64,000 bases of DNA from the UHGV virus genome UHGV-1366603, one strand, 5' to 3'. Numbering within the stretch: the stretch's first letter is position 1; each line of letters begins with the position of its first letter. Positions 24,001 to 30,000 of the stretch are shown piece by piece. The stretch is from a virus. Made by a program: the position numbers.

Positions 24001-27000
24001 AATCGATTTTAAGATGCTGTATCGCAGAATAAAAGATGATGGGTTTATACATGTTAAACGATTATCAGAAACTTCTGTGGTGATTTATCATCGCACTGAT
24101 CAGGATTTGTTAGGGTGCGTTATAAGGCTAACAAATTTACGTAGTTTTTACGTTGATTTACTTACAGACTTTTATCCGGAACCTTGGTGTTTTATAGATG
24201 AAAATAAATGACGGATATATCATTTCAGCAATCGTTTCAACTGCGTTGATTGTAGCGATGTTGATGTTCTACGTTAAGACGTCTGACGAATCACGTAGAG
24301 ACTCCCTTTATCGTGAATGTATGTCAGGCACTACTGTAGATAATCCACGCTACGCTGAATTAGTAATGGCGTGTACGGAATACGCTAATCGAATGGGAGG
24401 AGGGAAATGAAAATTTGGTTGCCGATTCTAGTTTTTATCGTTATTGCAGGGGCACTCGCAAGTGCTGAGTTAGATAGCCGTACTTTAGAAACGAAACGTG
24501 AATTGTACCAGGACTGTATAAAGGATTACACACCGGGTACAGAGCTTCATGCACAGGCTGTAAAAAGCTGTGCGTTGATGGCTGAATCGCAGACTCGCTC
24601 CTAATGCGTATCTGGACGCTACAACTCGCTAAGTGGCGGTTAGCTAAGCAGAAAGGATTTCACGCAGTGGATATCACTGTGAAGTCAGGTCGAAAGGAAC
24701 TCGCCCCCGACTGGGATTTCCTAATGGCGTATAAATCTTCTGCCAAGGACGCTGCCGCTGAACGTGAGTACACGATAAAGTATTTGTACAAACTCGAACG
24801 ACTGTTAGATACTGATGCCGAAGTTTTAGTGTCATTACTCAGACACGATGACTTGGTTTTGATGTGTTACTGTCCCGTAGGTAAGTTTTGTCATCGTCAC
24901 CTACTGGCGAACAAACTTCAAGAAGTAGGAATGATGTTCGGTATCGACGTTGCGTTGTGTGGAGAATTAACCGAATGAAAAATTTTATCAAAACCTTCCG
25001 AAAATCACCAATCGTTCTTGATTTTTAGGTACAGAATAGTCTCCTACCGCCCGATTCTATGGGCGGTAGGTGTTTTATTTTTTTTTGATCTTGGAGGGTT
25101 AAGTGGCCACATCTTACGTACCTGATTTGAGTCTGACCTCAGCAGAGCTAGTGGTCGCTTTAATCAATCATGATAACGGGTTACAGCTTACGCTAAACGA
25201 AATACGTATTAGTGGAACTGTAACAAACCCATCCCCAACAACTTCGCGTCGTAACACTATCACTGAAATCAGTAAAATCAGAAAACCGGATGGTGCGTCT
25301 GTTGTGGTTTATTACGACAGACTCGACGCAGATGAAGTATTAACGTATGAACCCATTCTGATTTCGTTAGACGGTACTGAAGACAACGTTCGTGACATTC
25401 TTAGTGTTGTAAATGAATTCTGCGGAACGAACTTACAACCCGAGGATTTACGTGCTTCAGATATCACTTTAGGTAACGATCCCATTTCCGTTAACGTTGC
25501 TGACGATTCTCCTGCCTGGATGAATGCGTTTATGGTGACGTTATTTGATAAAACCGAACGTGCGTTAGCGAACGAAGAAGATGAAATCTTCTGCATCGGT
25601 GACGATAGCGTTCTTACATTCGAGGTTACAGATGGCGACAGCACTGAAGAAGACGAGACTCCATGAGCTCGAAAGCTACGCAGGCACACCGCAGGGTGGG
25701 GTACTGCTGTATAGCAAAGACAATAAAGAATATAAAATTGATGTTGATAAGTTAGCCCCGGTTGCGACAGTCACAACGGTTAACGGTGCGAATAATGCAG
25801 CCACGCTGGATTTCAATACCAGCACTGACATTATTCTGGTGTTAAACGATCCCACCACTACAGTGAAGTTCGCAGCCCTTACCAACGTTGCGGAAAATAC
25901 CCGTTTCGAAGTAATGCTAACGTTTAAGCAAGGAACGGGGGCGAATAAAGTAACCTGGCCTGAAAACGTTAAGTGGCCTCACGGTGCACAACCGGTTTTA
26001 TCCTACGCGGCAAATGCGGAGGACACTCTGTCGCTTTATACCCTTGATGGGGGTGCCACCTGGAAAGGTTCTCTTCTTGCAGCGGGTTACTAAATGAGAA
26101 AACATTTTCAGCGTCACGCGATTAGCTACGCGTTATCGTTAGCTTACGGACACCAATCCTTCGTTACCCGGAATACGGGAACGACTCACGACGCGCACAA
26201 CGAACACTATATTCAAAACGAAGAAGGTGTTCTGTCGAATAACCGTCATTTCATTGCTGACACTATGGCGGAATACCAACCGAACGGGGACGCGACGACC
26301 GAGGGTCAGTCGTTACACGTTATTGGTTACTGCCACATGTATATCGCAACGAAAGACGAAAGATGGTTAGATGCGGCGAAACACGCCTGGGATGCGTACA
26401 ACACGTACTTCTACGTCGGACAACCTATTCCGACCACACCCCAGCGTCGGATTTGTAACTGGTTGGTAAACGGGAAAGAACCGGTATTAGCACATTACCC
26501 AATACACCCTACAGAACCTACCCAAGGTGGGTATAAAAGCGTCCCTGTAAGGTTTACAAACGGACAGTGTAAAATACCGCATGGTGCACCGTTCTGGGGA
26601 GAGTATTTGGATACCTTTACGTTTGCGCATCGTGGTCACCCTGCCTGGGAAGCCATTAACGCAGACGTACAGATTATTAAGGAAGACAAAGAAGGGTCAA
26701 TTAATTGGGAAGACGTTTTAACTCACGTTATTACCAATCCTGATAAACCCTACGAGGCCAAAGCCTGGGTTGATTGGCCTACGTTATTAAACAACGCTAC
26801 AGGGTACACCCCGCTTTGGGGTGGCAGTGCAACAAAAGCCCCTAAACACGACGTTGACTGGATAATTGCCTGGACAGGTAACAAAATCCAGGATAGTGAG
26901 ATTATTGAGACAGGATTAGCAGACGCTGATAAAGGTACCGTACAGTTAAAAGACACGCAGTTAAACGGTGTCTATTTGATTAACTACGCGGTAAAACTGC

Positions 27001-30000
27001 CTGTCGAACACGGGGGTTACGAGTTTAAACGTAACGAACCGTGGCACAACCGTCCAGTTCACACGCCGTTCTTAGGATCGAAAAACCAATACGGTAACGC
27101 CGCTGATGCTGAACTGTGGTTTATTGACGCCTGTTATTTGCTGTGGCGAATCACGGGTGAAGAGAAATACAAACAAGCATTAGACTGTGCTTTCTACACA
27201 GCACACGAGTACACGTATATTGATGCGGTAGATAAATTCTTCCGTCGTTCTACCGCTGCGGAAACACCGTTTACGGATGGTATTTCGTACGACTTCAATT
27301 ACCCGGACACCGTAAGTGCTACCTACGGCCGTGATGAGAATGGGGATATTACCATCCATGTGCCTGAAGCGGCACAACACTTTATGGAGCAGAAAGCGGT
27401 TCGATTCAGGATTAACAAAGACTCCAAACTACGTGTCACGTACGGCGGGGTTTGTAAGAACGGTGATCCTGTCTACTGTAAAGCAATGGTAAACATTAAC
27501 CCTGTGAAAGCCGACACCGAGGAAGTAAACTGGTACGGCTTAACCTTACCTCAGTCTACGGTAAATACCGTTAAGCAGTACGATATTGACTTAGGCCAAC
27601 TTGCCCGTATCACCACCCCAGAAGGAGAAGACTACCTGATAGCCGACGCCCGTGCGTGTTCGGACTATGGTGGTTGTACGTGGGAAGAACGTTTTGAGAA
27701 CAGCATTTACGACGGTCGCGCGGGTACCGTTATAGAAGCTGAATTTCCTGATGACGGTGCCGGGTTTATTATCGGGTTCTGGTTAACCGCTGAAGAGAAG
27801 GTAAAACCGGTTTCTATTGTCTACCGTGCGGACGCAGATTTTAACCTGCGTTTAGTCGACAGTGATAACTGGCGTTGGTGGTGGATGTTACCCAACACAA
27901 ACAACGAATGGCGTCAGGTAACGTTGAATCCGGATGATGCCACACTTTCCGGTTATCAGCCAGACCACACAGACGACGACCCTAAACCGGCAGCACCGAA
28001 TTTCGATAAGGTGGATCAGGTCACGATTCTCCCTGACTCTACGGTTGACCATGCACATTTTGCCTACTATTGTGTTAACGATGTTCCACCGCTCTTTAAT
28101 AAAGACGACGGTTATATTCTCACCTTCCGTATTGGGTTACGCGGCGGTGGAGAGTATGATGCGAAGGTCGGCGACTGTACGATCAAAGATTACCGATTGG
28201 ATTCGTTAGCGTATTGTCCGGGTACGATACCGTTCTCGAACAACTATTCAGAAGGTTCAGAACAGTTAGGTGCCTGGCACGGGATGCCTTATCCGGGTTA
28301 TCAGTATCCGTTTATGTACACTATCCACAAAGACGACCGGTATAAGCTGTGGTTAGATAACCAGATTCAATTCTTGTACGATTCGCAGTTGGCTTACCAA
28401 CGGCAACTCGGTGAATTAGGGCCCGGTTGTGCAGCGTATATCTGGAACCGTTGGGACAACTACAGCTACGGAGAAGCAGATACCTGGACAACGTTCCATT
28501 GGGGCGACGACCATCCGTGGGCAGGGTATCAACCTCGTGCGTTTCATGCTGCGTGTCGGTGCTGGTACGAACTGAAACTAAGAGGTAAAGAGATTCCTGA
28601 GGCGTTAACAAGCTATATTGAAAACTGGGTGAATTGGCTAGGTGGGTTTGTGGATCGGTTTAACGGACACACCCCTAACGAGTTCCCTACAGCACCTGAT
28701 AAACCCGTTTGGGTGGAAGATGACTTCACCGCACATATGTGTGCGTTGTGGTTAGCAGGCTGTTGTTGGGCATTACTCGCTGGTGCAACTAATCCGAACT
28801 ACGATAAGGTAGTTAATGCGGCAATTAAGGAGTTAGGTGAAGGGTTTACGATTACCTCAATTCCGAATAAGCCGATTAACGGGGCGTGGTCTCCAGCCGC
28901 TCGAGAGTCTTCCGATAACGGAATGGCTTTTGGGTTCTACAGTGGGGAAGCGTTCCGTGCGTTAGGTCTCTACGTTACTTACAAAACCTACGGAGCCAAC
29001 GCTAATATTTATCGTGACTTAGCGATTGCTGACCACAGTCAAGCGGTCTTAGACGTTACGTTAACGATAGAAGACGATGCATTAAAACCAGAGCAATAAT
29101 AACCCGCTTATAAAAAATATTGGGGGGGGGTAAGCTACTCCCCCGATCTTTAGCTCCCGATAGAGAACTTAATATCATGGCGAAAGCGGTAAAGAAAATA
29201 CGATTGCATAATCTTAGGCCGTATACCGGTGATATCGGTGAAGGCGTTTTACTTTTCTCCAAGGATGAGAAAGATTATAAGTTACCAGTCCGTGAGGTTA
29301 TTGCAGATATTGACACCGTACGTAATGCGGTGGCTGATGCACAAACAGCAGCAGCGCAATCACAAGAAGCTGCAACTCAGGCTACACAAGCAAAGAATTT
29401 AGCAGAAACAGCAAAACAACAAACTGACACCGTTGCGGCTACGGTTGCTCAACAAGCACAAACCGTAACAGAAAAAGCAACGGAAGTCGGTACAAAACAC
29501 ACTGAAGTGTTAGCCGCGAAAACGGCGGTAGATACCCAGGTTGTGTCCGTTAATGAGAAAGCGCAAGCGGTAGCGGCAAGTGAGGCCAACGTCACGCAAG
29601 CAGAGACTACTGTTACGAAGAAAGCAGAAGCCGTTGCGACACAAGCCGGTCAAGTTGAACAGTCTCTTACGGCAGTTAACGAAGCTGTCGCGTCGGTAGA
29701 GTCGTCAAAAGCCTCTGTAGAAGCTACAGCAACGCAAGTTACCTCGGACAAAGAAACCGCAGAGAATGCGGCAACCCGTTCTGAGGCAGCCGCTAAGCGA
29801 GCAGAAGAAATTGTTGCACAAGGTACTGTTGATGCAACAACGTCCAGTAAAGGTATCGTTAAACTTAATAATACCTTAACCAGTGACTCGGTTACTGAAG
29901 CTGCTACTCCGTCAACGGTTAAGCAGTTAAATGATGATTTGCAGTTAAAAGCAAACCGTCACAACCCAACCTTTACCGGTACGGTAAAAGCACCAACCCC

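What the first reader, a model, noticed from the sequence alone, without database searches (positions are those of the whole stretch)
25632..29099. Possible split tailspike: 153-aa anchor gene abutting a 1001-aa body gene
The anchor-motif gene ends with TAA at 26091-26093 and the 1001-aa ORF starts with ATG at 26094, leaving no spacer. In the neighbouring fibre (29177) the same anchor motif is fused to the fibre body. This may be a two-subunit spike, a recent fission, or a sequencing/assembly artefact. The 1001-aa protein is rich in aromatic residues, as carbohydrate-active spike domains often are.
Basis: seen in the sequence. Interest (0 to 1): 0.5.

Follow-up and report, generated by a model that had tools for sequence, protein, structure and literature searches.

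The report
Two-gene phage tail adaptor plus glycosidase-like protein
The abutting 153-aa and 1001-aa genes are real, but they are an old, widespread phage gene pair (a small tail-anchoring adaptor and a separately made, sugar-enzyme-like tail protein), not a recently split tailspike or a sequencing error.

Summary
The 153-aa gene runs 25632-26093 and ends in TAA. The 1001-aa gene starts with ATG at 26094, in the same frame with no spacer. The first ~50 residues of the small protein recur at the start of the fibre gene at 29177 and at a third gene, 35632.

It is not a fission or an artefact. The same two separate genes sit next to each other (-8 to +3 nt) in SPN3US (gp123/gp124), phi92 (gp140/gp141), rV5 (gp43/gp42), T7-like podophages and others. 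Of 77 informative IMG/VR loci, 67 have this layout and none has a fusion. No fusion appears in about 350 protein clusters either. Published SPN3US virion mass spectrometry found both proteins, in separate gel slices.

The small protein is modular. Its N-terminal anchor differs by lineage (T7 fibre N-domain, Tail_spike_N, or the SPN3US-type motif here). Its last ~105 residues form a conserved beta-sandwich that almost always ends the protein.

Best reading: a non-covalent adaptor-plus-body tail appendage. The physical contact between the two proteins and any enzyme activity are inferred. This is a new member of a known but mechanistically uncharacterised family.

The parts
25043..25070 (+). Terminator-like hairpin (11-bp stem, 8 GC pairs, T-run) that probably closes the upstream transcription unit, so the DUF7941/small/large genes would start a new unit.
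   Evidence: consensus scan only; function inferred
25103..25666 (+). 187-aa DUF7941 protein, the homologue of SPN3US gp122. It overlaps the start of the small gene by 35 nt. Whether it is part of the appendage is uncertain.
   Evidence: Pfam PF25613 E=6e-20 and phrog_2935. 45% identical to SPN3US gp122. gp122 was not detected in SPN3US virions (PMC5694885).
25632..25769 (+). N-terminal anchor motif of the small protein (about residues 1-46). It is shared with the fibre at 29177 and the gene at 35632.
   Evidence: E=2e-15 and 3e-6. Low to moderate model confidence.
25770..26093 (+). Conserved C-terminal beta-sandwich domain of the small protein (residues 47-153; motif QGTGANKVTWP...W...LS...D...TW.G), followed by the TAA stop.
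   Evidence: phrog_9017 E=2e-38 full length; phrog_7760 and others match residues 54-153 only. Alignments. AF2 pLDDT is about 90 or higher over residues 51-153 (10-residue block means 87-95).
26094..29099 (+). 1001-aa tail protein: an (alpha/alpha)6 glycoside-hydrolase-like barrel (helices at about 69-106, 337-372 and 751-966) interrupted by beta-rich, CBM-like domains (about 120-330 and 395-700).
29177..33643 (+). 1488-aa long fibre that carries the same N-terminal anchor (residues 1-51) fused directly to a fibre shaft (T4 gp34-like trimerisation domain, S74 chaperone domain).
35117..35629 (+). Second DUF7941 gene (170 aa), a paralogue of 25103-25666.
   Evidence: PF25613 E=3e-16; phrog_2935
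35632..36252 (+). Third protein with the anchor motif (206 aa). Its body matches only the C-terminus of phrog_33169 (unknown function).

Best explanation
The two genes encode two separate virion proteins that together form one tail appendage.

The 153-aa protein is a modular adaptor. Its first ~46 residues are the anchor that this phage lineage also uses for its long fibre, and they fix the protein to the tail or baseplate. Its C-terminal ~105-residue beta-sandwich is a conserved terminal platform.

The 1001-aa protein is made from the next cistron, probably by translational coupling across TAA-ATG. It probably docks non-covalently on that platform. It presents an (alpha/alpha)6 glycoside-hydrolase-like barrel with carbohydrate-binding-type beta-sandwich inserts to the host surface, where it binds and possibly cleaves a conserved envelope glycan.

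Shown here: the two genes are separate and their adjacency is ancient; the adaptor N-terminus is modular; the body has a glycoside-hydrolase-like fold; and in SPN3US both products are separate virion proteins that are not head proteins.

Inferred: physical contact between the two proteins, their stoichiometry, translational coupling, catalytic activity and the substrate.
For: 1. Conserved synteny as two ORFs. This holds in SPN3US, phi92, rV5, PBECO4, Rosemountvirus UPF_BP2, Kolesnikvirus M7 and the Autographiviridae ISAO8 and Atoyac13, with junction spacers of -8 to +3 nt. tblastn finds the large protein in 539 phage records and the small protein in 518. Of 80 IMG/VR loci, 3 are truncated. 67 have the small C-domain ORF ending 2-96 nt upstream of the large gene, and it is never in the same ORF.

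2. Modular adaptor. The C-terminal ~105 aa are conserved, while the N-termini are unrelated and specific to each lineage. ISAO8 gp38 and Atoyac13_09 carry PF03906 (T7 tail-fibre N-domain), and there the pair fills the gp17 fibre slot. rV5 gp43 carries PF18668 (Tail_spike_N). N-terminal parts range from 4 to 455 aa elsewhere.

3. The conserved domain ends the protein. In 113 of 128 representative proteins it finishes within 10 residues of the C-terminus (median 1).

4. The C-domain and the large protein diverge together. Mantel Spearman r=0.32 over 39 non-redundant loci, with 0 of 2000 permutations reaching that value.

5. When the adaptor is absent, the body is fused directly to another N-terminal segment. 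It is fused to P2 gpI in 10 loci with the order gpV-gpW-gpJ-gpI::body-gpH-TFA. In Goslar_00092 it follows a 276-aa N-terminal extension.

6. SPN3US virion mass spectrometry (PMC5694885, Suppl. Table 1). gp124 (113.7 kDa) peaked in gel slice 9 with 39 peptides. gp123 (16.5 kDa) peaked in slice 1 with 5 peptides. Neither is marked as a head protein.

7. Fold of the large protein, plus 72 invariant or near-invariant positions that include acidic residues (D66, E70, D338, E340, D377, D380, D395, E952).
Against: - No direct evidence that the two proteins touch. No complex prediction could be run.
- The co-divergence signal is expected to some degree for any two adjacent, co-inherited genes.
- The small C-domain family is very large: 6,741 representative clusters at E<=1e-10, some in tandem arrays. 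It may therefore have roles that do not involve this partner.
- No sequence-level membership in any glycoside hydrolase family: Pfam and PDB profile searches were empty. Catalytic residues could not be mapped.
- The 2026 phi92 cryo-EM study could not place gp140 in any fibre density (PMC13450770).
- The large protein is unusually conserved for a receptor-binding protein (27-77% identity across hosts).
Confidence: 0.72

Rival explanations
1. The two proteins are neighbours but work independently. The small protein would be a stubby fibre with its own terminal knob, and the large protein would attach to the baseplate through its own conserved N-terminus.
For: The small C-domain is a very widespread terminal module that also occurs without any sign of this partner. 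The first ~30 residues of the large protein are highly conserved. In the gpI and Goslar fusions the body works without the small C-domain.
Against: Strict adjacency in 67 of 67 non-fused informative loci and in all named phages checked except Goslar, where the body is fused instead, across unrelated morphotypes. In T7-like podophages the only tail-binding fibre N-domain is on the small protein, so the large protein has no other obvious attachment. Where the small partner is missing, the body always acquires a fused N-terminal attachment domain.
Confidence: 0.17
2. Recent gene fission of an ancestral single-chain tailspike in this phage lineage.
For: The two ORFs are in the same frame and separated by a single TAA. 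The neighbouring fibre has the anchor fused to its body.
Against: The split is present in every lineage examined, and in most of them the two genes are in different frames. No anchor-C-domain-body fusion exists among 120 + 108 + 128 protein clusters or 77 loci.
Confidence: 0.03
3. Stop-codon read-through of TAA 26091-26093 makes a minor 1155-residue fusion (153 + 1 read-through residue + 1001) that is the functional, anchored form.
For: The same frame with a single stop occurs in the window, its close relatives (L012, L014) and SPN3US (L015).
Against: In all other lineages the frames differ by -1 or +1, or the genes overlap by 8 nt, so no conserved recoding is possible. TAA followed by A is an efficient terminator (general knowledge). 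SPN3US gp123 spectra peak in the lowest-mass gel slice.
Confidence: 0.04
4. Sequencing or assembly error introduced a false stop into a single 1155-codon gene.
For: None beyond the in-frame arrangement.
Against: The exact 153-aa and 1001-aa sequences occur in clusters of 303 and 648 members from independent Salmonella, E. coli, Shigella and Enterobacter assemblies. The junction is identical in L012 and L014.
Confidence: 0.01
5. The small protein is a non-structural assembly chaperone for the large protein.
For: It is a small gene tightly coupled to a large tail gene, as with many fibre chaperones.
Against: It lies upstream rather than downstream. It carries bona fide particle-binding N-domains (PF03906, PF18668). 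SPN3US gp123 is found in purified virions.
Confidence: 0.03

Closest known systems
SPN3US gp123/gp124 (SPN3US_0123/0124) and the Erwinia phage Asesino orthologues
   Same: Same three-gene order (DUF7941, small, large), the same anchor motif and the same reading frame. Identity is 47% (small) and 72-77% (large). Both SPN3US proteins are virion proteins not marked as head proteins.
   Different: SPN3US has a 3-nt spacer. It lacks the downstream anchor-bearing long fibre, the gp38 adhesin genes and the second DUF7941/anchor cassette that this window has.
phi92 gp140/gp141, rV5 gp43/gp42, PVP-SE1 gp51/gp50 (PHROG 9017 or 7760 plus PHROG 2871)
   Same: Homologous small C-domain and homologous large protein (27-41% identity), adjacent with a -1 to +1 nt junction. 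A review citing Schwarzer 2012 lists phi92 gp141 as a 'glycosidase' (PMC5380687).
   Different: The N-terminal anchors are different (Tail_spike_N in rV5). The pair sits inside the baseplate gene cluster. The positions of gp140 and gp141 in the phi92 virion are still unassigned.
Adaptor-plus-enzyme receptor-binding systems (K1-5/SP6 gp37 adaptor with tailspikes; G7C gp66/gp63.1; CBA120 TSP4 docking domains)
   Different: There is no detectable sequence homology to those adaptors. The cargo here is an (alpha/alpha)6 barrel rather than a trimeric beta-helix. Docking is not demonstrated.
(alpha/alpha)6-barrel glycoside hydrolases (GH126 CPF_2247 3ren, GH8, GH105/GH88, GH76, GH48)
   Different: Only 9-13% identity, and no Pfam or PDB-profile hit. 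The barrel is split by about 500 residues of beta-domains. Catalytic residues and activity are untested. Assigning 3ren to GH126 is from my own knowledge.
P2 gpI::body fusions (P0080, P0089; loci L039-L048)
   Same: The same conserved body (about 49% identity) is displayed at the baseplate periphery next to the normal fibre gene gpH.
   Different: The body is covalently fused to a baseplate wedge protein, and no small adaptor gene is present.

Membership tests
PHROG 9017/7760 small 'tail fiber protein' (phi92 gp140 / rV5 gp43 / SPN3US gp123 type) | Profile match, including the conserved C-terminal ~105-aa domain (QGTGANKVTWP ... W ... LS ... D ... TW.G) | tested here: met
   phrog_9017 E=2.2e-38 over residues 1-153. 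Invariant Q100 and D131, and near-invariant G101, T102, G103, N105, W109, W115, P121, L123, W144, G146.
PHROG 9017/7760 small 'tail fiber protein' | Encoded immediately upstream of a PHROG 2871 gene, as a separate ORF | tested here: met
   Zero spacer here. The same layout holds in 67 of 67 non-fused informative IMG/VR loci and in 8 named phages.
PHROG 9017/7760 small 'tail fiber protein' | Present in the virion, outside the head | not testable with these tools
   Only by proxy: SPN3US gp123 was detected in purified virions and is not marked as a head protein (PMC5694885, Suppl. Table 1).
PHROG 2871 'tail protein' (phi92 gp141 / SPN3US gp124 type) | Full-length profile or sequence match | tested here: met
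   E=0, 1461 bits, residues 6-983. 316 homologous clusters. Mean column identity 53% over 72 sequences.
Classical trimeric beta-helix tailspike (P22 or CBA120 TSP type) | Right-handed parallel beta-helix body | tested here: not met
(alpha/alpha)6 glycoside hydrolases (GH8 / GH126 / GH105 / GH76 clan-type fold) | (alpha/alpha)6 barrel fold | tested here: met
(alpha/alpha)6 glycoside hydrolases | Sequence membership in a curated glycoside hydrolase family | tested here: not met
   No Pfam hit at E<=0.1. phmmer and a 72-sequence profile against PDB gave 0 hits at E<=10.
(alpha/alpha)6 glycoside hydrolases | Catalytic acid/base residues in place, and hydrolytic activity | not testable with these tools
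   Invariant acidic residues exist (D66, E70, D338, D377, D380, D395, D589, E952). No structural superposition or assay was possible.
Gene fission product (Rosetta-stone criterion) | Fused orthologue (anchor + C-domain + body in one chain) in relatives | tested here: not met
   No such fusion in 120 large-protein clusters, 108 small-protein clusters (84-453 aa), 128 representative clusters or 77 loci.
Programmed recoding (read-through or frameshift fusion, as in lambda G/GT or T7 10A/10B) | Frame relation and recoding site conserved among relatives | tested here: not met
   The frame relation varies: same frame, -1, +1, or an 8-nt overlap.
Adaptor/docking domains of branched tailspike systems (CBA120 TSP4 / T4 gp10-like) | Structural similarity of the docking domain | tested here: inconclusive

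The most novel reading that the evidence does not exclude
The conserved C-domain-plus-body unit may be a mobile, host-independent glycan-processing cartridge. It would be a probably non-trimeric (alpha/alpha)6 enzyme of a glycoside hydrolase family not yet in CAZy. Phages of every tail type would plug it onto their own anchor to attack an envelope glycan shared across Gammaproteobacteria. It could also be the unassigned 'fibre II' density of phi92.
Probability: 0.3. Interest if true: 0.6.

Novelty: new member of a known kind. Interest (0 to 1): 0.35.

Why it matters
For this window, the result removes a suspected annotation or assembly problem. The two genes should stay separate, annotated as a tail adaptor and a glycoside-hydrolase-like tail protein.

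More broadly, the pair is very common, found in more than 500 sequenced phages (jumbo, rV5/phi92-like and FelixO1-like myoviruses, and T7-like podoviruses) and in P2-like elements. Yet nobody has placed it in a virion or assigned it a substrate. Papers on BASEL and phi92 say explicitly that the components of these fibres are unresolved.

Recognising the plug-in design (swappable anchor, constant platform, constant body) yields a concrete hypothesis for the unassigned fibre density in phi92. It also suggests a handle for host-range engineering.

Tried and rejected
- Pfam on the large protein gave no family. PDB sequence searches with the single sequence and with a 72-sequence profile gave no hits.
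- PDB phmmer on the small protein gave only chance RagA matches (E about 0.1).
- A near-identity DNA search of GenBank phages found only one 72.7% match, so no closely related sequenced phage exists in that set.
- I tested whether Goslar_00092's 276-aa N-terminal extension is a fused copy of the small protein. It is not: blastp and the C-domain HMM were negative, and there is only a sub-threshold DUF7941 hit, E=0.003. I do not use it as a Rosetta stone for the small protein.
- I first guessed that the SPN3US homologues were gp168-170. The GenBank record shows they are gp122-124, and gp168-170 are unrelated 135-188 kDa proteins.
- The original phi92 paper (PMC3457257) is not held. Literature searches for PVP-SE1 gp50/51, Rosemountvirus and Melnykvirinae RBPs found nothing specific to this pair. 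A report of virion glycosidase activity in Kolesnikvirus phiEa21-4 is not attributed to any protein.
- Foldseek against PDB gave mostly noise for the full-length model (TM below 0.2), apart from the CBM11, GH48 and GH105 sub-domain hits.
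Full report
**1. The observation**

- An ORF starts at ATG 25632, preceded by GAGG at 25622-25625. It encodes 153 residues and ends TAC-TAA at 26088-26093.
- The next base, 26094, begins an ATG that opens a 1001-codon ORF ending at 29099.
- The two ORFs are in the same frame.
- The N-terminus of the small protein (MATALKKTRLHELESYAGTPQGGVLLYSKDNKEYKIDV...) recurs at the start of the 1488-aa fibre at 29177 (MAKAVKKIRLHNLRPYTGDIGEGVLLFSKDEKDYKLPV...). This is 26/53 identities, E=2e-15.
- The large protein is moderately rich in aromatics: W 3.6% against 1.4 +/- 0.9% in other window ORFs.
- A missing spacer is not remarkable here. Neighbouring genes in this window routinely abut or overlap.

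**2. Where the window comes from**

The region belongs to an SPN3US-like jumbo phage.
- The large protein is 77% identical to Erwinia phage Asesino and 72% to Salmonella phage SPN3US. The small protein is 45-47% identical to its counterparts there.
- No GenBank phage is close at the DNA level.
- The exact 153-aa and 1001-aa proteins are in the public protein collection. Their clusters have 303 and 648 members, many on contigs of about 224 kb from Salmonella, E. coli, Shigella and Enterobacter isolate assemblies.
- Two IMG/VR contigs (95-97% identity) have the same stop-then-ATG junction.
- This rules out a sequencing or assembly artefact.

**3. The split is ancient and nearly universal**

The same two genes are annotated separately and sit next to each other in many phages:

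| Phage | Small / large gene | Junction |
|---|---|---|
| SPN3US | gp123 / gp124 | 3-nt spacer |
| phi92 | gp140 / gp141 | 1-nt overlap |
| rV5 | gp43 / gp42 | 1-nt spacer |
| PBECO4 | (unnamed) | 1-nt spacer |
| Rosemountvirus UPF_BP2 | gp47 / gp46 | 1-nt overlap |
| Kolesnikvirus M7 | gp041 / gp042 | 1-nt overlap |
| ISAO8 (Autographiviridae) | gp38 / gp39 | 8-nt overlap |
| Atoyac13 (Autographiviridae) | 09 / 10 | 8-nt overlap |

- tblastn finds the large protein in 539 phage records and the small protein in 518.
- I sampled 80 IMG/VR loci chosen only for encoding the large protein. Three are cut at the contig end.
- In 67 loci, a separate ORF carrying the small C-terminal domain ends 2-96 nt before the large gene.
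- In the remaining 10 there is no small gene. Instead the body is fused behind a P2 gpI baseplate domain. One of these, L039, reads gpV-gpW-gpJ-gpI::body-gpH-fibre assembly protein.
- No locus has small and large in one ORF.
- None of 120 large-protein clusters contains small-protein sequence.
- All 108 small-protein clusters are 84-453 aa.
- None of the 128 newly retrieved proteins among the 150 best small-domain representatives, drawn from 1.84 billion proteins, contains the body.
- The frame relation between the two genes varies: same frame only in the window-like and SPN3US-like phages, otherwise -1, +1 or overlapping. A conserved read-through or frameshift fusion is therefore excluded.
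- Recent fission is excluded as well.

**4. Experimental proxy**

Published mass spectrometry of CsCl-purified SPN3US lists gp124 (113.7 kDa) peaking in gel slice 9, with 39 unique peptides and SC/M 0.64. It lists gp123 (16.5 kDa) peaking in slice 1, with 5 peptides and SC/M 0.42. Neither carries the 'Head' flag given to proteins found in tailless particles. gp122, the DUF7941 protein, was not detected (PMC5694885, Suppl. Table 1).

So in the closest studied relative, the two products are separate polypeptides of the virion, outside the head.

**5. Anatomy of the small protein**

- Alignments show a conserved C-terminal domain of about 105 residues, with invariant Q100 and D131 and near-invariant G101, T102, G103, N105, W109, W115, P121, L123, W144 and G146.
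- The domain follows N-terminal parts that are unrelated between lineages and range from 4 to 455 residues.
- In the T7-like podophages the N-terminal part is the T7 tail-fibre N-domain (PF03906). There the pair occupies the fibre slot between the internal core proteins and the holin/terminase genes.
- In rV5 the N-terminal part is Tail_spike_N (PF18668).
- In this window it is the ~46-residue motif shared with the long fibre.
- The AF2 model (pLDDT 84) gives a confident beta-sandwich for residues 47-150 and a poorly defined N-terminus.
- The domain family is very large, with 6,741 representative clusters at E<=1e-10. In 113 of 128 proteins it ends within 10 residues of the C-terminus, and it sometimes occurs in tandem arrays.

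**6. Anatomy of the large protein**

- No Pfam or PDB sequence match was found.
- The family is strongly conserved, with 53% mean column identity over 72 sequences and 72 invariant or near-invariant positions.
- The AF2 model is confident: pLDDT 90.7, pTM 0.87.
- The barrel helices lie at about 69-106, 337-372 and 751-966. They are separated by beta-rich domains, one of which resembles CBM11 (Foldseek probability 1.0).
- Whether it is catalytic is open. Invariant acidic residues exist (D66, E70, D338, D377, D380, D395, D589, E952), but I could not superpose them on known active sites.

**7. Mechanism proposed**

The C-domain and the body travel together as one unit, while the anchor is swapped to suit each phage's tail.
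- Pairwise divergence of the C-domain and the body is correlated across 39 non-redundant loci (Mantel r=0.32, 0 of 2000 permutations). This is a modest signal that co-inheritance alone could partly explain.
- Wherever the adaptor gene is missing, the body carries a fused N-terminal attachment segment instead.
- The junctions are tight. In several relatives the GGAG for the large gene lies inside the last codons of the small gene. This fits translational coupling of two partners. In the window the corresponding stretch (GCGGG) is a weak Shine-Dalgarno, so reinitiation at TAA-ATG is plausible but inferred.
- A terminator-like hairpin at 25043-25070 suggests that DUF7941, small and large begin one transcription unit.
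- I therefore read the pair as an adaptor (anchor plus platform) carrying a non-covalently bound glycan-binding, or glycan-cleaving, body at the tail periphery.
- Contact, stoichiometry, activity and substrate are inferences.
- The main rival is that the two are independent neighbours (about 0.17).

**8. Comparison with what is known**

- The window pair is a clear member of PHROG 9017 plus PHROG 2871.
- In principle it works like the adaptor-plus-enzyme systems of K1-5/SP6, G7C and CBA120. That comparison is from my own knowledge, and there is no sequence homology.
- The literature I could search does not assign these proteins a place or a substrate.
  - The BASEL paper says it is unclear which genes build which Vequintavirinae fibres, and that much of the locus is conserved and may target conserved glycans (PMC8594841).
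  - The 2026 phi92 cryo-EM paper lists gp140 as an unplaced fibre candidate and does not mention gp141 (PMC13450770).
  - A review lists gp141 as a 'glycosidase' (PMC5380687).

**9. Verdict**

- The artefact and fission readings are rejected, and the two-subunit reading is favoured.
- The window instance is an ordinary new member of a known, widespread but mechanistically uncharacterised gene pair.
- Interest is modest (0.35). It rests on the family rather than on this locus.

Noticed in passing
window 35117-36252: A second cassette with the same layout as 25103-26093: a DUF7941 gene (35117-35629) followed 2 nt later by a 206-aa protein (35632-36252) with the same N-terminal anchor motif. Its body matches only the C-terminus of phrog_33169 (unknown function). 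The phage therefore has three anchor-bearing proteins and two DUF7941 genes.
   Followed up: partly
window 25103-25666 and 35117-35629; L004 6975-7502 (Goslar_00091); L001 8468-9001 (SPN3US gp122): Short DUF7941 proteins repeatedly sit directly upstream of fibre or anchor genes in chimallivirus-like jumbo phages. Yet SPN3US work places the DUF7941 paralogue family among head proteins, and gp122 was not found in virions. Their role next to fibre genes is unexplained (chaperone, or low-copy baseplate adaptor?).
   Followed up: partly
window 29177-34954: The long fibre combines a T4 gp34-type trimerisation domain with a C-terminal S74 intramolecular chaperone domain. It is followed by two gp38-type adhesin genes: 33643-34425 with glycine-rich motifs, and 34442-34954 with a Gp38_N domain plus a different C-terminus. 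A self-cleaving chaperone together with separate gp38 adhesins is an unusual combination.
   Followed up: no
whole window (cluster look-up): This jumbo phage has no close relative in the GenBank phage set (best DNA match 72.7%). Its proteins nevertheless occur on contigs of about 224 kb in assemblies of Salmonella, E. coli, Shigella and Enterobacter isolates (clusters of 303 and 648 members; about a dozen named members were listed). That suggests a widespread carrier-state or pseudolysogenic phage that has not been described as such.
   Followed up: no
L039-L048 (IMG/VR contigs of about 18-20 kb); P0080, P0089: P2-like baseplate operons (gpV-gpW-gpJ-gpI-gpH-TFA) in which the conserved (alpha/alpha)6 body is fused to the C-terminus of gpI. 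The contig sizes would fit tailocin-like or defective P2-type elements.
   Followed up: partly
P0257-P0259, P0286: The small protein's C-terminal beta-sandwich domain occurs as tandem arrays (4-7 copies) in proteins of 1056-2036 aa. Overall the family has more than 21,000 representative clusters at E<=1e-3, far more than could be checked for pairing with the large protein.
   Followed up: no
L009 2071-3579 (Erwinia phage M7 gp040): A 502-aa 'tail protein' just upstream of the small/large pair shares the beta-sandwich insert region of the large protein (phrog_23426 matches window large residues 489-666). It looks like a partial duplication of that domain.
   Followed up: no
L006 1500-2995 (Vibrio phage VP-1): The region upstream of the large gene is unannotated. 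The small C-domain ORF there has almost no N-terminal part, and a long ORF in another frame ends just before it. This is a possible frameshifted or mis-sequenced adaptor gene.
   Followed up: no
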